Source: Octopus sinensis
Lineage: Eukaryota
NCBI RefSeq assembly: GCF_006345805.1
Contig: NC_042998.1
Span: 82,274,001 to 82,338,000 of the forward strand
DNA: 64,000 bases
Direction: 5' to 3'
This document shows, piece by piece, positions 7,731 through 31,785 of the stretch. A program made the position numbers and the translations under genes. Numbering within the stretch: the first letter of the stretch is position 1; each line of letters begins with the position of its first letter. The notes under the pieces were generated by a model, which did not search any database, was not told the origin of the DNA, and saw only the letters and a program-made list of their open reading frames with translations.

Positions 7731-7846
7731 TTTTTACCGCCTTATTTCTCTACTGCTTTAAAAGAAAATTCTTTTACTGTTTTAATTTTTTCGTTTGGGC
7801 TATCGAAGTCGTGAGTTAATTTTTGTTGCTGCGTTGCACGTAAGTT

Positions 7847-8746
7847 TTGTTAAGCGTTTTTGTTGTACGGATGCGCGGTGTTTGTGTCTGCGTTAAGACA
7901 GACAAGAACAATCCCTCCCAAATGGGAGAGACGGCAAGAATGTTCGAAACCCTATCGGACTTGTCTACGTCTGAGGAGGAATTGGAGGAAGCGGTGAGGA
8001 GAATGGACCAGAAACTAGGTAATACCTATGCTGGAGTGGCTACAAAATCGGAGGAGAGAGGGTTGGACTTGGCCAAGCTGCCAAGTTACCAGACGTATGT
8101 CAGGAAGGACGGAGGTGAGGTGGAATTGGTACCGCCACGAAAGCGCAGAGAATGGTACGAGAAAAGGACCATTACATACAGGGTCTACGTAAACGGAAAG
8201 AGAAAAATCAAAGTGGTGAATATGGAGTGGATAGAGGAGGCTCTGAGAAGAACAGAAGTGGAAATAATATTTCTGACAAGAGGTATAAGCTATGGTACTG
8301 TGGTGGTACAGTTCAGGAGTGAAAATACAGCAAGGAGGATGGCGGCGAAAGCAGTGAAATCTGAGAGGGTATTCCTTTTGCCCTCATACTTAAACAGGAA
8401 AATTACTAGAATAAGGGTTGAGGGAATACCCCCAAACGTCGAAGCTGAGTGGATTGTGACAGCTACAATTAGCGATCATGAGGATGAAGTGGACATCTTC
8501 CATGCCACGGTAAAGACCGAGGGCTGGAGAGGCGCGACACTGGATCTAAATATGCAGGCGGAGGATAATGTACTGGAGGACCTAGAAGAGAACATCAGAT
8601 TGGGAGACGTAATCATGAGAGTGTGGGTGGAGGGCAGAGCTCCACGTTGTTACAAGTGTGGCCTGAGGGGCCACATAAGAGCTAACCGCCCTCCCCCAGA
8701 GAAAGATATGGATGCGGAACAACAAAGAGAGGCGGAAAAAGAGTAG
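7847..8746 (+). CDS. Gag-like/ORF1 protein of a non-LTR retroelement (L1/Tx1-type) with degenerate CCHC zinc knuckle; probably continues past premature stops to ~9240
   Basis: 299-aa ORF, purine-rich, RRM-like VVVQFRSE and IRVEGIPP segments, then RCYKCGLRGHIRANR (CX2CX4HX4C with last C to R) and a charged/Pro-rich tail. Confidence 0.75.
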   Translation: MLSVFVVRMRGVCVCVKTDKNNPSQMGETARMFETLSDLSTSEEELEEAVRRMDQKLGNTYAGVATKSEERGLDLAKLPSYQTYVRKDGGEVELVPPRKRREWYEKRTITYRVYVNGKRKIKVVNMEWIEEALRRTEVEIIFLTRGISYGTVVVQFRSENTARRMAAKAVKSERVFLLPSYLNRKITRIRVEGIPPNVEAEWIVTATISDHEDEVDIFHATVKTEGWRGATLDLNMQAEDNVLEDLEENIRLGDVIMRVWVEGRAPRCYKCGLRGHIRANRPPPEKDMDAEQQREAEKE

Positions 8747-18527: not shown

Positions 18528-21407
18528 TAGAAGATAATATATATATAGATACATACATATAAGCACATGTGCGCGCACACATGCACAGATATATTCCTAT
18601 AATGCTCTATAGTGCATGTCTATAAAGTTATTAACCAACACCGTTACAAAGTTAATATATGTAAACGCACTAAGCTCGTATCCTGGCAAAAAAAAAAGAG
18701 TATGATGTGTTGTATGTTTTGATCTGGTTGGATTTTCTGTAAGCAACTGTTTACCTTCCTTAACAATCCACGAGGTCTTAAAGTATATTGAAAAAATGAA
18801 TTAGCAGATTTTACACTTTTCCAGAAAGAGAATTGCGATTAATGCAATTTTCTTCCTCGAAATTAACACAATATTGATTAATGTAGTTTTGATCTCACAA
18901 TCTATATTATGAATAGTCTTCAACTGACATCAAGCACTCTCATTTAGTTTGCAGAGTATTTGTGGACTAACTAATCCAGCCAGCATTGTTGTATTTCATT
19001 TCTGTTATCGGAATTGTTTGGATGTCCATAGTGTTACATGATGTTGAAGTTATGTTCATGATTTACAATGCAATATGATGGGCAACCAACACGAAAACAA
19101 TTCATGCGCTCATATTGATGTTCATTCATCTGTATGAAAATAGTTATATACTAAGTACAATATGATAAATATTATATAACATATACTAAGACAATTCATA
19201 ATCATTCCTCAACTAGGCTGCTGGTTAGTTTTCTATCATACTACGTTATGTATATTTATACTAAGAGAAAATCACTTCAAACCTGATTCATTAAACTATT
19301 ATTCCCTCTACATGGCTAATCAGAAACACTGATTATTGTTTTGTATTATTATAAGAAATATTATGGTCACTAATAGCATTATCATAAAAAAATGTATATT
19401 TATAAAGTACTCAGACAGAAAGTTGTTTTTTTTCTCATAAAGCTCTGTAACTTGTCTGGCTGAGAAAACTACATTAATGACACCAAATATTTATTGAGAA
19501 TAGATAAACACAAAATTCCAAAGAGACTCAGCGTTGAATATTTCAGTTAATTTCGTTAAAATTAAATCAAGGCAAGTAGGCTATAAATCAGCAGTATATT
19601 TCAAATTTTATGTAAAAACTAGAAAAATAGTAATGTTGTCTTCTATTAACTCGTGTGTATAACATTGATAATATCTATATGTGTGGTATATGATGCAATT
19701 GTTAAGGACACTCACTGTTTTTTAAGTCATCTCGGTCTTGTAAATTTATTTCATTCTTAATCGCCGGCCTGTGTAACTTTATATTGTGGTACGATGGTGA
19801 GCAAGAGATCACTGCAATAGTTACAAGTTCTCTAACAACGAATCTATGTGAATAAATTCCTATAAATATATAACATATAACTACACCACAATAGCTTCCG
19901 TTGAAAAATTTACTTATATAAGAAATTTTTTCAACGGTGTTCCAAATGTCTAATGTCTATCGAAACCTAATTCTTACTGTTTCTTCAATATTTCTTAATC
20001 AATAACTCTGAGGCTTTAATATTTTATAATATTTAGATTTTTGTATTTCATTTAAAGAAGTTGCCTAAACACTATAAATAACGATTCTAAGCCATGCTCA
20101 ACAAAACATTTATTTTAAATTTTGTCAGAAAAGTTAAAAAAGAACCTTTTATTTCCAGAAACTGGTTTTCGTTTTAATAATGCCAGCACGAAATATTTTT
20201 ATAACAAAATAAAAGATGCTTTAAAACAGCCCAGAAAACCTGATTGTTATCGTAATATAATGGTGATAAAAAAATGAGAAAAATTTTTTAACTCGTCTTT
20301 AAGAGCTGAGTTACAAAGGGAATTAATTAAATTCTATAATTGAAACGTTTGCAATGTTTATAACAATATTATATTTAAAATGTTTTATTAAAATATTTCT
20401 AACCATTAATTATAATAATGACTTTAATGTCAAATTGTTTTTTATAAAATTATAAACGCTTTTGGTCCAAAAAGAGATTGATCAGATTTGTAAATTAAAT
20501 TCCCTTTCAGTAAACATGGCAAATATTTCAGAGTGCTAATATTTTTTTTTTTTACATGAAGGATTTCAGAATCAATTACAAATAGGATTAGATCAACATT
20601 TTAATGGACTGCACTCTATAGTGGAACATATTGGAACATATATCTTACCCAATCTAATACATATCAATAACTTGTCACAACAATATTTCGACAGACAAAA
20701 CTTTATTAAATACTTGATTTTCAAAAAAGAAAAAAACATTGCTGTTTGCAATTATGTAGTTAAATTTTTCGAAGTGTATCCAAATGTTTTCCATATCATT
20801 TTAAACTAAATACATGTTAGGAGATTCATATGAAAACTGTTCAAAACGGGAATTCTAAATAAAATCCCTGTTTTAGTTCCTACCTGTAATTACGTTTTCT
20901 GTAGACGAATATTACAGATTAATCTTAACATGTTGAGAGCTGCCACTTTATTTCATATCATGCAGTTGTCATTTATTCTTCCCCTTACTCGGAACCTTCC
21001 CTACGTTTTCATCTGGAGTTTATAGTCGACTAATGAATAAGTGCAGTGGATCTGTGTCACTACGATGAAAAATTCAGTATTCAGTCAGTACTTGTGGGTC
21101 TGTGCATGACTGAAAGTACGAATTTGTCAATATACATTGTCGGTGCACAGGTGTGCTATCCTTGACTCTATCTTGGTGCTTTTACTGTTTAAATACCTAA
21201 TTAATTCGGATCCTGAAAATCGTATATATATATAAAGTAAAGGCTATTTTCCAACATAATGTGGTTGTCCTGAAACGGACGATGTTAATGTTGTTTACCT
21301 CGGGAGACATCGTTTATAGCTGGCTATACGATACAATATCTGTGTCCTTATATTTTCGAACAGGGAATTCCGCACTCCCATCTAGCACAAAACAATATCT
21401 ATAATAT

Positions 21408-21447
21408 CTATGGACCGATTTCTGGGTTATTTCCTTTATCAACACAG
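21408..21447 (-). ncRNA. Type I HHR, U3-A8 core variant
   Basis: Reverse strand: ctgtg-TTGATAA-aggaaataaccca-GAAA-tcgg-TC-catag. Confidence 0.7.
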
Positions 21448-21671
21448 AGTAGCTGCTTGGCTAGATGGCGTTGCTGAATACACTGTTTGAATATATAGTT
21501 TTCAAAGCGACACACAGTCACGGATCTAAAAATAGAAATATTATTTCTAAGCTTCTCAAAGAGAGATATTGAGTAACAGCTCTTTAAAGTAAAGGCTATT
21601 TGCCAACATAATGTGGCTGTCCTGGAAGGGACAATGCTACTGTTGTTTAGCCATCTAGCCAAGCAACTACT

Positions 21672-21712
21672 CTGTGTTAATAAGGCGCAATAACCCAGAA
21701 ACCGGTTCACAG
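21672..21712 (+). ncRNA. Type I HHR, U3-A8 variant (decayed inverted copy)
   Basis: ctgtg-TTAATAA-ggcgcaataaccca-GAAA-ccgg-TT-cacag. Confidence 0.6.
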
Positions 21713-21918
21713 ACATTGTTTTGTGCTAGATGACGGTGATGAACTCTCTGTTCGAAAATATAAGGACACAGATATTGTGTCGTGTAGCCAGCTAGAGACA
21801 ATGATTCCTGGGGCTAAACAACAGTAATATTTTCTCTTCCAGGACAGCCACATTATGTTAGCAAATAGCCTTTACCTTAAAGAGCTGTTACTGAATGTTT
21901 CCCTTTGAGAGATTTAGA

Positions 21919-21949
<31 letters not shown>

Positions 21950-22099
21950 TTAATAATAATAATAATAATGATAATAATAATAATAATAATAATAACAACA
22001 ACAACAATAATAATAATAACAACAACAATAATAATAATAACAACACCAACAACAATAATAATAATAATGATAATAATAATAATAATGATGACAATAATG

Positions 22100-22163
<64 letters not shown>

Positions 22164-22172
22164 TAGCAATAA
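21919..22172. repeat. (AAT)n/(AAC)n/(GAT) microsatellite
   Basis: Directly visible. Confidence 0.95.
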
Positions 22173-22407
22173 TATATGTAATAGAAATATTAAAATTACT
22201 AAGTCTCTTTAAAGGAGATTACGGCAGCGTTACTGGATATTAATAGTTATCGCCATACTAATATGGCAGTCTATAAATAAGACTAAAGCTGTCGCTGATT
22301 AGCTCCAAGAGGCCATCGCTTCTAGCTAGCTATATGACACACGAACCTGCGTCCATTACAACCTTCGAACAGGGGAGGTCAGCCGCTTCACCTTGCTAGT
22401 CAGACAT

Positions 22408-22448
22408 CTGCAGACATGTTTCAGGGTTGTTGCCATTTACCAATGCAG
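22408..22448 (-). ncRNA. Type I HHR, U3-A8 variant (inverted copy, two substitutions)
   Basis: Reverse strand: ctgca-TTGGTAA-atggcaacaaccct-GAAA-catg-TC-tgcag. Confidence 0.6.
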
Positions 22449-22635
22449 CGTAGACTGCCATATTAGTATGGCGATAACTATTAATATCCAGTAACGCTGC
22501 CGTAATCTCCTTTAGAGAGACTTAGTAATTTTAATATTTCTATTATTGAAAACAAGTGGATGTATTCCACTGTAACTAGGTAAATAAAATCTTCGAACAG
22601 ACGGTCAGTAGCGACACCTGCTGGTTCTGACTACG

Positions 22636-22676
22636 CTGCATTGATAAAGGGCAACAACCCTGAAACATGTCTGCAG
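22636..22676 (+). ncRNA. Type I HHR with U3-A8 core, structurally intact
   Basis: ctgca-TTGATAA-aggg-caacaa-ccct-GAAA-catg (palindrome)-TC-tgcag; stems I and II pair perfectly, GUC site. Confidence 0.8.
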
Positions 22677-23405
22677 ATGTCTGACTAGCAAGGTGAAGCG
22701 GCTGACCTCCCCTGTTCGAAGGTTGTAATGGACGCAGGTTCGTGTGTTATATAGCTAGCTAGAGGCCATGGCCTCTTGGAGCTAATCAGCGACAGCTTTA
22801 GTTTTATTTATAGACTGCAATATTAGTATGGTGATATCTATTAATAATATATATATATATATATAAAGATTTAGTTTAATTAGGTACTACCAAAGCGACC
22901 ATAGTAAAATCTCAAGAATAGATCAGAGTAGTAACTATACTAACAAGTAAATTCAATCGCCACATCAAAGTGGCTGTTCCATGTTACTACTAGTTTAACC
23001 CCAGGCAGATCTTCCACCGGTTGGTTACCGGAGCGAATTACAACCATCCTCTAGTAGACAACAGGATCAAAAGACTGACTCTGTTTCGATCTAGTTGGCC
23101 CGTCTTCACGAGCACCTGGTTAACAGAGCGATTACCAGGGTCTGCTCCAGCTAAGATAATACTGTAAATAAAGCGACCATCGACTTTACTTCTTTTATGG
23201 AACATATATTTATATAATAGTATGTGCTCCATTTACAGCCACTAAACTGATAGTTTAACCAGACTAATATTCACCCATTTCTGTGCCTTTCTGATATTCT
23301 TATATAATCCGTCTGTTTTTATTATTTTGTGCAATATATATGCACACAATCATGCACATATACACATACACATACAAACACACACATGTATATGTGTATG
23401 TGCAT

Positions 23406-25879
23406 GAGAGGACCCGGCAGGACTAGTCAGGCCATATCCCGTGGCCCCTACCTGGGACGTAGTCGATCCACCTGTGCATACCTTCCTTCTTGTGACACTT
23501 GTGAAGACCTGCTGAGGCAAGTGAAAATCAATGAAAATAGATGAACATCAATGGAATTTGTATCTTTGTGGTACCAGTGCCTGTAGCACACAAGAAAACC
23601 ATCCGAACGTGGCCGTAGCCAGTACCGCATCGACTCGCCTCCGTGCTGTGGGAACATGGTGGCACATAAAAACACCATCCGAAGACCCGGCAAGACTAGT
23701 CAGGTCATAACCCGTGGGCCCTACCTGGGACGTAGTCAGTCCACCTGTACATACCTTCCTTCTTGCGACACTTGTGAAGACCTGTTGAGGCAAGTGAAAA
23801 TCAAAACAAATCAAAATAGATGAACATCAATGGAATTTGTATCTTTGTGGTACCAGTGCCGGTGGCACACAAGAATCCATCCGAACGTGGCCGTAGTCAG
23901 TACCGCTTGTGGTACCAGTGCCGGTGGCACACAAGTATCCATCCGAACGTGGCCGTAGTCAGTACCGCATCACTGGCCATCGTGCTGTGGGCACATAACA
24001 AACACCATCCGGTCGTGGCCGTTCGCCAGCCTCATCTAGCACCTGTGTCGGTGGCACATAAAAAGTAGTCAGTACCGCTTGTTGTACCAGTGCCGGTGGC
24101 ACTCAAGAATCCATCCGAACATGGCCGTAGTCAGTACCGCATCAGTGGCCATCGTGCTGTGGGCACATAACAAACACCATCCGGTTGTGGCCGTTCGCCA
24201 GCCTCATCTAGCACCTGTGTCGGTGGCACATAAAAACACCATCCGAAGACCCGGCAAGACTAGTCAGGCCATAAACCATGGCCCCTACCTGGGACGTAGT
24301 CAGTCCACCTGTGCATACCTTCCTCCTTGTGATACTTGTCAAGGCCTGTTGAGGCAAGTGAAAATCAAAATCAAAATCAAATCAAAACAAATCAAAGTAG
24401 ATGAACATCAATGGAATTTGTATCTTTGTGGTACCAGTGCTAGTGGCACACAAGAGAAAACCATCCGAAAGTGGCCGTAGCCAGTACCGCATCGACTGGC
24501 CTCCGTGCTGTGGGCACATGACAAACACCATCCGATCGTGGCCGTTCGCCAGCCTCATCTAGTACCTGTGTCGGTGGCACATAAAAACACCATCCGAAGA
24601 CCCGGCAAGACTAGTCAGGCCATAACCCATGGCCCCTACCTGGGACGTAGTCAGTCCACCTGTGCATACCTTCCTTCTTGTGACACTTGTGAAGACCTGT
24701 TGAGGCAAGTGAAAATCAAAATCAAAACAAATCAAAATAGATGAACATCAATGGAATCTGTATCTTTGTGGTACCAGTGCCGGTGGCACACACTTTGTGG
24801 TACCAGTGCCGGTGGCACACAAGAGAACCATCCGAACGTGGCCGTAGCCAGTTCCGCATCGACCGGCCTCCGTGCTGTGGGCACATAACAAACACCATCC
24901 GATCATGGCCGTTCGCCAGCCTCATCTGGCACCTGTGTCGGTGGCACATAAAAACACCTTCCGAAGACCCGGCAAGACTAGTCAGTCCACCTGTGCATAC
25001 CTTCCTTCTTGTGACACTTGTGAAGACCGGTTGAGGCAAGTGAAAATCAAATCAAAATCAAAATCAAAATAGACAAAATAGATGAACATCAATGGAATTT
25101 GTATCTTGTGGTACCAGTGCCTGTGGGACACAAGAAATCCATCAGTGCTGTAGTCAGTGCGGTGGGCACATGACAAACACCATCCGATCGTGGCCGTTCG
25201 CCAGCCTCATCTAGCACCTGTGTCGGTGGCACATAAAAACACCATCCGAAGACCCGGCAAGACTAGTCAGGCCATAACCCATGGCCCCTACCTGGGGCGT
25301 AGTCAGTCCACCTGTGCATACCTTCCTTCTTGTGACACTTGTAAAGACCTGTTGAGGCAAGTGAAAATCAAAACAAATCAAAATAGATGAACATCAATGG
25401 AATTTGTATCTTTGTGGTACCAGTGCCGGTGGCACGTGGCACACAAGAAAACCATCCGAACGTGGCCGTAGCCAGTACCGCATCGACTGGCCTCCGTGCT
25501 GTGGGCACGTAACAAGCACCATCCGATCGTGGCCGTTTGCCAGCCTCATCTGGCACCTGTGTCGGTGGCACATAAAAAAACCATCCGAGCGTGGCCGTCT
25601 GCCAGCCTCGTCTGGCACCTGTGTCGGTGGCACATAAAAAACACCATCCGAGCGTGGCCGTTTGCTAGCCTCGTCTGGCACCTGTGTCGGTGGCACATAA
25701 AATCACCCACTACACTCTCGGAGTGGTTGGCGTTAGGAAGGGCATCCAGCTGTAGAAACACTGCCAGATCTGACTGGACTGGTGCAGCTTTCGGGCTCCG
25801 CAGACCCCAGTTGAACCGTCCAACCCATGCTAGCATGGAAAGCGGACGTTAAATGATGATGATGATGATGATGATGATG

Positions 25880-29161: not shown

Positions 29162-29240
<79 letters not shown>

Positions 29241-29733
29241 ATTAATTTGGAATAATTATCAATTACACCAAGTAGTCTTCGGCATGTAAAAGCCTCATTT
29301 GAGGAAAATTTAAGTAATACTAAGCAATAAGGGTTCAGCAACGAATTGCCTTACCACATACCGAATTTAGAAATAGCAGTCAAAGGGTTATAGCTATTTC
29401 TTCTACTAAAAATACTATTGCTTAGTATTACTTAAATTTTCCTCAAATGAGGCTTTTACATGCCGAAGACTACTTGGTGTAATTGATAATTATTCCAAAT
29501 TAATTAATTTCACCCTTCATTATTACGGATAACCATATTTTATCTCAGTAGATGACTACAGCATCTTGTTTTGGCTACACGCGGGTGGGAGGGGGCTGTT
29601 GACACAATCGTTTCATTCACAAATTTGAATTCGGTGATACTAGTTGAGGATTCTAGCTCGCTCTGATACTGAGTTGAGTTGGTACCTCCTAGTATCTCAA
29701 AATTCAATATATAATCATTTATGATTATAGTAT

Positions 29734-29840
29734 TCCACGCTGAAGAGAAAAGAAGTTTCGGTAAGATAGAATTATTTAATATTTAATATTTTAATTCTTA
29801 TGCTTTCCTAAAACTTGATTTCGAAACGTACGTCCGTGGA
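29734..29840 (+). ncRNA. Type I hammerhead ribozyme, unit 1
   Basis: tccacg-CTGAAGA-gaaaagaagttt...aaacttgatttc-GAAA-cgtacg (palindrome)-TC-cgtgga; 6-bp stem I, ~76-nt extended stem II, GUC site. Confidence 0.85.
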
Positions 29841-30334
29841 TAACTTTAAAAATGTTTGATAGATTGCGGTTAATTCATTCTCTCTTACCTGTTTGTGTCA
29901 GCCTTCCAATTGCTGTTTTTACTGAGATCTCCCTTTTTAGTAGAAGAAATAGCTATAACCCTTTGACTGCTATTTCTAAATTCGGTATGTGGTAAGGCAA
30001 TTCGTTGCTGAACCCTTATTGCTTAGTATTACTTAAATTTTCCTCAAATGAGGCTTTTACATGCCGAAGACTACTTGGTGTAATTGATAATTATTCCAAA
30101 TTAATTAATTTCACCCTTCATTATTACGGATAACCATATTTTATCTCAGTAGATGACTACAGCATCTTGTTTTGGCTACACGCGGGTGGGAGGGGGCTGT
30201 TGACACAATCGTTTCATTCACAAATTTGAATTCGGTGATACTAGTTGAGGATTCTAGCTCGCTCTGATACTGAGTTGAGTTGGTACCTCCTAGTATCTCA
30301 AAATTCAATATATAATCATTTATGATTATAGTAT

Positions 30335-30441
30335 TCCACGCTGAAGAGAAAAGAAGTTTCGGTAAGATAGAATTATTTAATATTTAATATTTTAATTCTT
30401 ATGCTTTCCTAAAACTTGATTTCGAAACGTACGTCCGTGGA
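30335..30441 (+). ncRNA. Type I hammerhead ribozyme, unit 2
   Basis: Same motif shifted by 601. Confidence 0.85.
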
Positions 30442-30935
30442 TAACTTTAAAAATGTTTGATAGATTGCGGTTAATTCATTCTCTCTTACCTGTTTGTGTC
30501 AGCCTTCCAATTGCTGTTTTTACTGAGATCTCCCTTTTTAGTAGAAGAAATAGCTATAACCCTTTGACTGCTATTTCTAAATTCGGTATGTGGTAAGGCA
30601 ATTCGTTGCTGAACCCTTATTGCTTAGTATTACTTAAATTTTCCTCAAATGAGGCTTTTACATGCCGAAGACTACTTGGTGTAATTGATAATTATTCCAA
30701 ATTAATTAATTTCACCCTTCATTATTACGGATAACCATATTTTATCTCAGTAGATGACTACAGCATCTTGTTTTGGCTACACGCGGGTGGGAGGGGGCTG
30801 TTGACACAATCGTTTCATTCACAAATTTGAATTCGGTGATACTAGTTGAGGATTCTAGCTCGCTCTGATACTGAGTTGAGTTGGTACCTCCTAGTATCTC
30901 AAAATTCAATATATAATCATTTATGATTATAGTAT

Positions 30936-31042
30936 TCCACGCTGAAGAGAAAAGAAGTTTCGGTAAGATAGAATTATTTAATATTTAATATTTTAATTCT
31001 TATGCTTTCCTAAAACTTGATTTCGAAACGTACGTCCGTGGA
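30936..31042 (+). ncRNA. Type I hammerhead ribozyme, unit 3
   Basis: Same motif shifted by 1202. Confidence 0.85.
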
Positions 31043-31785
31043 TAACTTTAAAAATGTTTGATAGATTGCGGTTAATTCATTCTCTCTTACCTGTTTGTGT
31101 CAGCCTTCCAATTGCTGTTTTTACTGAGATCTCCCTTTTTAGTAGAAGAAATAGCTATAACCCTTTGACTGCTATTTCTAAATTCGGTATGTGGTAAGGC
31201 AATTCGTTGCTGAACCCTTATTGCTTAGTATTACTTATATATATATATGTATATATTGGTAAATGTGTGAAATCCTTGGTATATTTAGGTATGTTTGAAT
31301 AAGGAAAAGAATGACTTCACTGTTCTAATTAATTTCCTTTCCTAATAATATAATGAAATTTAATTTTTCAGTTTCATTTGGAGATCTAGTAAGTTCTTTG
31401 TTAACTTCGGTGGGGAGATATTTTCATGATTCCCTGTTAACTTTTCTTGAGAACTTTCTCGCATTCGTCGGTGGCGGTTGTCAAACTGATCTTCAGGTTC
31501 TGTGCTGCTGTGTGATTCTATATACAAGAGATTTGGGTATGTCTTGGTTGGGGTTGGGGTTTGTTAATTAAAAGTGTGAGAATGAAGGGGTGTCGATGAA
31601 TCAGAGCTGAAGGAAAACAGTGAATGGTGAAAACAAGATAATTGATTGAGGATGGAGCACCATACAACCTGAATGTGAGAATGTTCTCCAGAAAAGTTAA
31701 CAGAACAAATTGTAAGATTAAATTATATTATATTATTAGGAAATGAAATCAATTAGAACTACCTGTGAATTCATTCCTTCCCTTG

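What the first reader, a model, noticed from the sequence alone, without database searches (positions are those of the whole stretch)
21408..22676. Two related element families share a compensatory U3-A8 hammerhead core (UUGAUAA)
Seen: four motifs with perfect or near-perfect HHR scaffolds (ctgca/tgcag or ctgtg/cacag stem I, aggg/ccct stem II, GAAA, catg or ccgg palindrome, UC) carry TTGATAA or a single-base decay of it instead of CTGANGA. Established: C3 and G8 form a Watson-Crick pair in the active HHR fold, so U3-A8 preserves it. Inference: the double change is kept in two families whose stems I and III differ by covarying substitutions, arguing for selection on function. Standard CUGANGA searches would miss these.
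Basis: partly seen in the sequence, partly recalled or inferred. Interest (0 to 1): 0.75.

Follow-up and report, generated by a model that had tools for sequence, protein, structure and literature searches.

The report
Retrozyme family with swapped hammerhead core
The stretch holds two insertions of related ~360-base protein-free jumping repeats whose hammerhead RNA motif, predicted to cut itself in pairs, carries an already published core swap (U3-A8 for C3-G8) as the family norm; sister families spread with C-G, U·G and C·A at the same pair, which would let one test how much cutting these elements need.

Summary
Real, but mostly known. The four motifs are the two arms of two insertions (old family A, young family B) of homologous ~355-nt non-coding repeats; only 22636-22676 is intact. 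UUGAUAA is family B's norm (97 of 100 listed copies, none CUGANGA), and stems covary across 20 family representatives (95% paired, 13 of 16 pairs compensatory). U3-A8 is in print: natural examples (PMC3088659) and ~1,300 Penelope hammerheads in Schistosoma, with UUGAUAA itself (PMC4209133). Penelope elements of this genome carry it too (9 of 30 loci). The argument that two families keep it, hence selection, is weak: A and B share it by descent, and sister lineages spread with U3·G8 (39 of 42) and C3·A8 (13 of 44 family-A copies, only 10 of 44 with an intact stem II). Insertions show Penelope marks: head-to-head arms, two fixed ends, AT microsatellites. Best reading: non-LTR retrozymes, likely dimer-cleaved, circularised and copied by Penelope enzymes; cleavage untested. 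The scan found this kind, and the second element that inserts into it, before on other DNA.

The parts
21233..21649 (-). Family A inverted arm, 417 nt (more than one 352-nt unit); 3' end runs into (TA)n at 21224-21232
21408..21447 (-). Hammerhead A1: core TTGATAA (21442-21436), weak stem II, broken palindrome TCGG, C17 at 21413; decayed
21650..21925 (+). Family A forward arm, 5'-truncated, 3' end runs into the (AAT)n tract
21672..21712 (+). Hammerhead A2: core TTAATAA (G5A; 21677-21683), stem II 2 of 4 pairs, CCGG, U17 at 21707; decayed
21919..22174 (.). (AAT)n microsatellite between the two insertions
22179..22453 (-). Family B inverted arm, 275 nt, unit positions 181 to 360 then 1 to 95 (the distal fixed end)
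22408..22448 (-). Hammerhead B1: core TTGGTAA (A6G; 22443-22437), stem II ATGG/CCCT, CATG, C17 at 22413; decayed
22451..22846 (+). Family B forward arm, 396 nt = one 360-nt unit (22451-22810) plus 36 nt (the proximal fixed end), followed by (TA)n to 22864
22615..22695 (+). Extended helix I carrying hammerhead B2, with a UAC-containing internal loop; z = -3.8 against shuffles
22636..22676 (+). Intact type I hammerhead B2: U3 22641, A8 22646, stem II AGGG/CCCT with loop CAACAA, GAAA, palindrome CATG, predicted cut after C17 at 22671
22605..22605 (+). Position (unit 155) at which an ORF1-only element is inserted in other family-B copies; empty in this copy

Best explanation
These are two insertions of related ~355-nt protein-free repeats (non-LTR retrozymes) whose type I hammerhead has U3-A8 as the family core; the RNA is predicted to cut itself after C17 mainly as a pair of hammerheads, is likely closed into a circle, and is likely copied into AT-rich microsatellites by Penelope-element enzymes. 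Shown: unit structure, family membership, the U3-A8 norm, covarying stems I and II, a palindromic stem III insert, head-to-head arms with two fixed 3' ends, copies longer than one unit, and RT plus GIY-YIG elements in the genome that carry the same core. Inferred: transcription, dimer cleavage, ligation to a circle, Penelope RT/endonuclease as the mobiliser. U3-A8 is one inherited state shared by families A and B; the 3-8 pair is constrained loosely, the rest of the core tightly. In the window only 22636-22676 would be active, and its partner in the inverted arm is on the other strand and mutated, so this locus is most likely a dead-end copy.
For: Family B: 188 exact scaffolds, 97 of 100 listed with TTGATAA; 40 scored of 2,339 candidates at 96-98% identity. 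Units tandem and permuted, arms up to 604-610 nt that cross the predicted cut site twice (L002, L011), so the template was a circle or an uncut multimer. 13 of 21 two-arm loci pair a 33-37 end with a 93-96 end (30 loci: 21 two-arm, 8 single, 1 complex); ends run into (TA)n; inverted 5'-truncated arms and microsatellite bias are described for PLEs (PMC8557442 passages). Unit folds at z = -6.7 linear, -6.5 circular. Across 20 representatives 95.0% of cells pair against 74.0 +/- 1.5 shuffled, 13 of 16 pairs compensatory, slid controls 30-50%; stem III insert a perfect palindrome in 18 of 20 with six different sequences. G5, A6, A9, G12, A13, A14, A15.1, U16.1 invariant over 8 family rows in which 51 of 247 columns are invariant. 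Monomer closure of stem III costs 5.7 kcal/mol and the two-molecule fold pairs the palindromes (-66.8 against -61.8). 9 of 30 GIY-YIG loci have a TTGATAA hammerhead downstream on the sense strand; two tested carry RVT_1 plus GIY-YIG. U3-A8 variants reported active in vitro (PMC3088659 section 8).
Against: No cleavage, transcript end or circle was observed. Representatives passed a filter that asked for paired stems and a palindrome, so the covariation figures lean upward. No autonomous element shares sequence with the unit beyond the core (the only hits were retrozyme copies lying nearby), so the mobiliser is not identified. 0 of 54 arm blocks begin within 3 nt of the predicted cut site, so there is no genomic footprint of cleavage. 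Family A multiplied with a poor stem II (10 of 44 intact) and in part with C3·A8 (13 of 44), which is hard to square with a strict need for cleavage. Position 10.1-11.1 is A-U in B and A·A in A rather than the usual G-C. Long tandem arrays are rare here (largest seen about 2.4 units, L062).
Confidence: 0.72

Rival explanations
1. The hammerhead fold is kept, but cleavage is dispensable or only occasionally needed: the elements are SINE-like passengers copied from uncut tandem transcripts, and the fold serves as a structure for Penelope RT recognition or RNA stability.
For: U3·G8 in 39 of 42 copies of a sister family; C3·A8 in 12 of 34 aligned family-A rows against a median 3% T-to-C at other T columns, linked to diagnostic positions (best p = 5e-5 uncorrected); stem II broken in 34 of 44 family-A copies; no arm starts at the cut site. 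PLE hammerheads cleave poorly even as dimers (PMC4209133); Naiads proliferate without canonical hammerheads (PMC8557442).
Against: The catalytic positions G12, A9, G5, A6, A13, A14 and the A15.1-U16.1 pair stay invariant while flanks diverge to 44-67% identity between the main clades, and changing palindromes are kept, which is what dimer cleavage predicts. A natural U3/G8 core is listed among tested variants (PMC7151607 passage).
Confidence: 0.2
2. The sequences are 5'-truncated ends (pLTRs) of autonomous Penelope elements, not independent retrozymes.
For: Same insertion marks as PLEs; the genome's PLEs carry U3-A8 hammerheads; retrozymes are proposed to derive from pLTRs (bioRxiv 10.64898/2026.07.22.740005).
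Against: In 30 family-B and 30 family-A loci the sequence 5' of the unit is more unit, an inverted arm or unrelated flank; the two widely spaced copy pairs examined enclose an ORF1-like zinc-knuckle element, not RT-GIY-YIG; the PLE hammerheads found have long stem II and AU-rich weak stem I, unlike these.
Confidence: 0.06
3. U3-A8 in these copies is chance decay of a CUGANGA family, or the motif is a chance match.
For: TTGATAA alone is at chance frequency in the window; three of four motifs are damaged.
Against: 97 of 100 listed family-B copies have TTGATAA and none CTGANGA; reversed-pattern controls give 0; covariation.
Confidence: 0.01

Closest known systems
Metazoan non-LTR retrozymes (Cervera and de la Pena 2020, PMC7229834; mussel units 350-390 bp; seen: passages and section 14, supplement unreadable. 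Li, Clavereau and Pollet 2026, bioRxiv 10.64898/2026.07.22.740005; seen: part 1 of 5 and passages)
   Same: Non-coding ~355-nt unit, under 45% GC, one canonical-architecture type I hammerhead per unit (helix I 5-6 bp plus internal loop, helix II 4 bp, short palindromic helix III), strongly folded, co-existing with PLEs, more-than-unit copies.
   Different: Core is U3-A8, with sister families at C-G, U·G and C·A; copies are mostly dispersed head-to-head arms with two fixed ends, not long tandem arrays; circular RNA and cleavage not shown here.
U3-A8 minimal hammerheads of Cercyon Penelope-like elements in Schistosoma mansoni (Cervera and de la Pena 2014, PMC4209133; seen: parts 1-2 of 4 and passages of supplement file 2)
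   Same: Same U3-A8 covariation, about 1,300 hits there; the supplement prints a UUGAUAA core; palindromic stem III, dimer model, opposite-strand pairs 100-700 bp apart.
   Different: Those are minimal motifs with long helix II and poorly defined loop 1 in pLTRs; these have a canonical 4-bp helix II, a 6-nt loop 2 and an extended helix I in a non-autonomous unit.
Natural hammerhead core variants (Perreault et al. 2011, PMC3088659; seen: passages and section 8)
   Same: U3-A8 reported in several natural ribozymes and stated to be active in vitro; weak stems II and III and palindromic loop III common.
   Different: Scattered examples; no family series with several 3-8 states in one lineage in the parts I read.

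Membership tests
Type I hammerhead ribozyme | Three-way junction with core N3 U4 G5 A6 N7 N8 A9 / G12 A13 A14, A15.1-U16.1, H17; ends in helix I | tested here: met
   Intact in 22636-22676; core positions invariant across families
Type I hammerhead ribozyme | Watson-Crick pair between positions 3 and 8 | tested here: met
   U-A in family B (97 of 100 listed). Not met in 13 of 44 family-A copies (C·A); wobble in a sister family
Type I hammerhead ribozyme | Helices I and II supported by covariation | tested here: met
   13 of 16 pairs compensatory, 0 of 500 shuffles reach 95% pairing; representatives pre-filtered for pairing. Family A stem II intact in only 10 of 44
Type I hammerhead ribozyme | G10.1-C11.1 closing pair | tested here: not met
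   A-U in family B, A·A in family A; G-C in 7 of 20 representatives. Tolerated departures are described (PMC3088659)
Type I hammerhead ribozyme | Match to an Rfam hammerhead model | tested here: inconclusive
   No hit at E <= 10, but C3-G8 sister motifs are also missed
Type I hammerhead ribozyme | Self-cleavage after H17 | not testable with these tools
   Needs an in vitro assay
Non-LTR retrozyme | 150-450 bp non-coding, low-GC unit with one type I hammerhead | tested here: met
   360-nt (B) and 352-nt (A) units; no frame of 200 codons or more in the region
Non-LTR retrozyme | Tandem copies with at least two consecutive hammerheads | tested here: met
   L062 (358-nt spacing), L002 and L011; most copies, including the window's, have one hammerhead per arm
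Non-LTR retrozyme | Highly self-paired unit RNA | tested here: met
   z = -6.7 linear, -6.5 circular
Non-LTR retrozyme | Expressed as linear and circular RNA | tested here: inconclusive
   Only assembled contigs of runs not on record as RNA; back-joints also occur in a run of unknown kind with genome-scale depth
Autonomous Penelope-like element | RT plus GIY-YIG frame between pLTRs | tested here: not met
   None 5' of 60 copies or between two spaced pairs; such frames exist elsewhere in the genome
PLE-mobilised sequence | 5' truncation, inverted 5' arm, partial tandem, microsatellite target | tested here: met
   features as described in PMC8557442 passages
Minimal PLE hammerhead (min-HHR) | Helix II 7-8 bp, helix I 4-5 bp with poorly defined loop 1, unpaired base after A9 | tested here: not met
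   Helix II 4 bp, extended helix I with internal loop

The most novel reading that the evidence does not exclude
One retrozyme superfamily has spread through this genome with four different states of the catalytic 3-8 pair (U-A, C-G, U·G, C·A), family A even with a collapsed stem II, meaning that retrozyme and Penelope-type copying needs little or no hammerhead cleavage in cis; the conserved fold and its neighbourhood also serve as the fixed landing pad of an ORF1-only retroelement across families that differ in sequence. This would make the open question of what PLE and retrozyme hammerheads are for testable with a natural allelic series.
Probability: 0.25. Interest if true: 0.6.

Novelty: new variant of a known kind. 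Interest (0 to 1): 0.32.

Why it matters
The core swap itself is known, so the finding as written is a modest extension: U3-A8 in canonical-architecture retrozyme hammerheads, which strict CUGANGA descriptors used in retrozyme surveys would undercount. What has value is the natural series of 3-8 states in families that each multiplied, since it links cleavage rate to success in transposition, a question left open in PMC4209133 and PMC8557442; and the two fixed insertion ends, which give a defined small substrate for Penelope integration.

Tried and rejected
Rfam at gathering and E <= 10: no hammerhead hit for U3-A8 or C3-G8 copies; microRNA hits come from the inverted arms and microsatellites. 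Loose CTGANGA pattern: 2,714 against 393 control, but most of the 100 listed are one repeat without stem II, so it gives no count of canonical hammerheads. Expression: no RNA holder listed on record; contigs of four runs cover the unit and show back-joints, but cannot show strand, ends or circles and the same joints occur in the largest run; not used as evidence. One search used a structure string off by one column and is void; one search is the corrected count. One search timed out with no output (number of seed rows not printed; I had dropped candidates with implausible cores and the AT-rich minimal families L066, L071-L075); its alignment was reused. The energy of a forced double-hammerhead string could not be evaluated; only the free two-molecule fold is cited. 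Direction of the C3-G8/U3-A8 change: midpoint rooting nests the C3-G8 clade beside family B (support 100), suggesting a return to C3-G8, but there is no sound outgroup (L078/L079 do not match the profile), so direction is open. The idea that spaced family-B pairs flank a Penelope frame was rejected. The ORF1 protein could not be classified beyond a sub-threshold zf-CCHC hit. Papers with kinetics of 3-8 swaps (Przybilski and Hammann 2007, Nelson and Uhlenbeck 2008, Martick and Scott 2006) and Lunse et al. on PLE dimers were not held, so I saw nothing of them beyond citations; they, and the unread supplement of PMC7229834 and file 1 of PMC4209133, may already hold retrozyme-type U3-A8, U3·G8 or C3·A8 examples. 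Literature searches that found no retrozyme U3-A8 report.

Full report
Observation. The four motifs are in the sequence. B2 (22636-22676, +) reads CTGCA TTGATAA AGGG CAACAA CCCT GAAA CATG TC TGCAG and is a complete type I hammerhead with U3 and A8. The other three are damaged: B1 (22408-22448, -) has A6G and a stem II mismatch; A2 (21672-21712, +) has G5A, two of four stem II pairs and U17; A1 (21408-21447, -) has an intact core but two stem II pairs and a broken palindrome. TTGATAA alone is at chance level in the window (29 seen, 30.0 expected); the scaffold is not (below). The four motifs belong to two insertions, each of two head-to-head arms: family A at 21233-21649 (-) and 21650-21925 (+), family B at 22179-22453 (-) and 22451-22846 (+), separated by an (AAT)n tract and ending in (TA)n or (AAT)n.

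What the elements are. The window lies in a 2.72-Gb genome. Family B gave 2,339 candidates, 40 scored, the best at 96-98% identity; family A gave 2,386 candidates, 40 scored, at about 76-85% to the window copy. Flanks show circularly permuted units of 360 nt (B) and 352 nt (A), not the end of a longer coding element. The units are homologous end to end, about 62-65% identical. The B unit folds far better than shuffles (z = -6.7 linear; -6.5 circular), with the hammerhead on a long helix I that has a UAC-containing internal loop. Of 30 family-B loci, 21 have two divergent arms, 8 one arm and 1 is complex; 13 of the 21 pair an end at unit position 33-37 with one at 93-96, as the window copy does (36 and 95); two arms of 604 and 610 nt cross the predicted cut site twice; 0 of 54 arm blocks start within 3 nt of it (my tally of its output; the query selected copies that span the hammerhead). 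Family A ends at the two homologous positions. Inverted 5'-truncated arms, partial tandems and microsatellite targets are the described marks of Penelope-like elements (PMC8557442, passages).

Is U3-A8 the family state? Yes. With the core left free, 188 exact family-B scaffolds were counted (reversed control 0); of the 100 listed, 97 have TTGATAA, 2 TCGATAA, 1 TTCATAA, none CTGANGA. A loose U3-A8 pattern gives 509 matches against 108 for the control and shows many further families. Across 20 representatives of the superfamily 95.0% of cells pair (shuffled 74.0 +/- 1.5; 0 of 500), 13 of 16 pairs have compensatory changes and slid controls reach 30-50%; the stem III insert is a perfect palindrome in 18 of 20, in six different sequences. 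These rows had passed a pairing and palindrome filter, so the figures lean upward. G5, A6, A9, G12, A13, A14, A15.1 and U16.1 are invariant over 8 family majority rows in which only 51 of 247 columns are. Selection on a hammerhead fold over the history of the superfamily is therefore well supported.

Only loosely. A tree of 125 near-full units built without the core columns (both arms of one insertion can be present) has four clades: A (34 rows: U-A 20, C·A 12, U·G 2), D (14: U-A 9, U·G 5), C (26: C-G 25, C·A 1) and B (51: U-A 49, two single departures). A and B thus share U3-A8 by descent; one paired change explains C against the rest, and its direction is not fixed. A young sister family has U3·G8 in 39 of 42 exact scaffolds (mean pairwise identity 0.91 in 10 copies, 8 of them without the ORF element nearby). 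In family A, 13 of 44 pattern matches have C3·A8 and only 10 of 44 have the three G-C pairs of stem II; C3 is at 35% against a median 3% T-to-C at other columns and travels with diagnostic bases, so it was inherited from source copies, although the C3 rows fall in two subclades. These are results against the reading that the Watson-Crick pair is strictly required for spread.

The likely mobiliser. A GIY-YIG search returned 150 scored matches; of the 30 loci fetched, 9 have a TTGATAA hammerhead downstream on the sense strand and 3 more have close U3-A8 variants, none a C3-G8 motif there; two tested loci carry RVT_1 plus GIY-YIG, and the two printed ends with a hammerhead run into (TA)n. U3-A8 is therefore also the core of autonomous Penelope elements here. 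No sequence link between those elements and the unit was found beyond the core.

Mechanism. Shown: structure, family state, covariation, insertion pattern, presence of candidate enzymes. Inferred: a transcript with two units forms a double hammerhead through the palindrome (monomer closure costs 5.7 kcal/mol; the two-molecule fold pairs the palindromes and gains 5 kcal/mol), cuts after C17, the monomer is ligated to a circle as shown for coral, mussel and axolotl retrozymes (PMC7229834, passages), and Penelope RT copies it for more than one round from two priming points. Nothing here shows RNA: run data are contigs of unrecorded kind.

Comparison with what is known. U3-A8 in natural hammerheads, and its activity in vitro, are stated in PMC3088659 (section 8). 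PMC4209133 (parts 1-2 of 4) reports U3-A8 in Cercyon PLEs of Schistosoma mansoni, about 1,300 hits with a dedicated descriptor, and its supplement prints a UUGAUAA core. A natural U3/G8 core is mentioned in PMC7151607 (passage). Retrozymes of 350-390 bp are described in mussel (PMC7229834 section 14) and a PLE origin is argued in bioRxiv 10.64898/2026.07.22.740005 (part 1 of 5 and passages). In nine searches I found no report of U3-A8 in retrozyme-type hammerheads or of several 3-8 states in one lineage, but four key papers and two supplementary files were not readable. Rfam misses these motifs and their C3-G8 sisters alike.

Side result. An ORF1-like, zinc-knuckle-bearing element of about 1.7 kb (147 protein matches; 88 exact 3' tails) is inserted into these units: of 30 tails examined, 20 have a hammerhead core 25-40 nt downstream, 9 are followed by another copy of the element and 1 by neither, across families with different target sequences and with 11-21-nt duplications in family B. 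The window copies lack it.

Earlier notes. The scan recorded this kind of element, the two fixed ends, the inserting element and a wobble-core series before, on other DNA of this and other genomes. I used them as leads; the pairing of the two ends was taken from them and tested.

Verdict. A real U3-A8 hammerhead family in Penelope-mobilised retrozyme-type repeats; a new variant of a known kind. The compensatory core is published; the selection argument as written is weak; the allelic series is the part worth testing. Interest 0.32.

Noticed in passing
L061, L062, L081-L140 (for example L089:1501-2838 +): ORF1-only element of about 1.7 kb (445-aa frame, weak zf-CCHC, T/G-rich 5' end, fixed 3' tail) inserted 25-40 nt upstream of the hammerhead core in many retrozyme families, often as tandem arrays; resembles half-LINE or Tx1-type site-specific elements (recalled label). 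No RT partner looked for.
   Followed up: partly
L149-L158; L087, L102, L104, L112: Young sister family with a U3·G8 wobble core (39 of 42) and a 6-nt palindrome CTATAG.
   Followed up: partly
L089, L092, L093, L097, L108-L111, L117-L120, L124: C3-G8 sister clade in which most copies also carry U4C (CCGAYGA) and longer 6-8-nt stem III inserts.
   Followed up: partly
L165, L166, L175, L178-L181, L187, L188: Penelope-like elements with RT plus GIY-YIG frames up to 780-883 codons and U3-A8 hammerheads with long stem II near their 3' ends.
   Followed up: partly
L066, L071-L075: Further AT-rich U3-A8 hammerhead families with weak stems, one with a U·U at 10.1-11.1; not matched by the retrozyme profile.
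   Followed up: no
L078, L079: C3-G8 hammerhead family with a long stem II insert, in inverted pairs; not matched by the retrozyme profile.
   Followed up: no
alignment offsets +84 to +147 from the core (window about 22730-22790): Motifs conserved across all families downstream of the hammerhead (GGACAC...GTGTC hairpin and CGATG...GGCTAA block); possible promoter or RT-recognition elements.
   Followed up: no
window 23408-25702: GC-rich complex tandem repeat with nested 62/63-, 125- and 172-bp periods.
   Followed up: no
window 29239-31240: Three near-identical 601-bp tandem units with an inverted partial copy at the left end, a PLE-like arrangement with a very young age.
   Followed up: no
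window 7844-8743 (+): 300-codon stop-free frame, the only one of 200 codons or more in the window; not examined.
   Followed up: no
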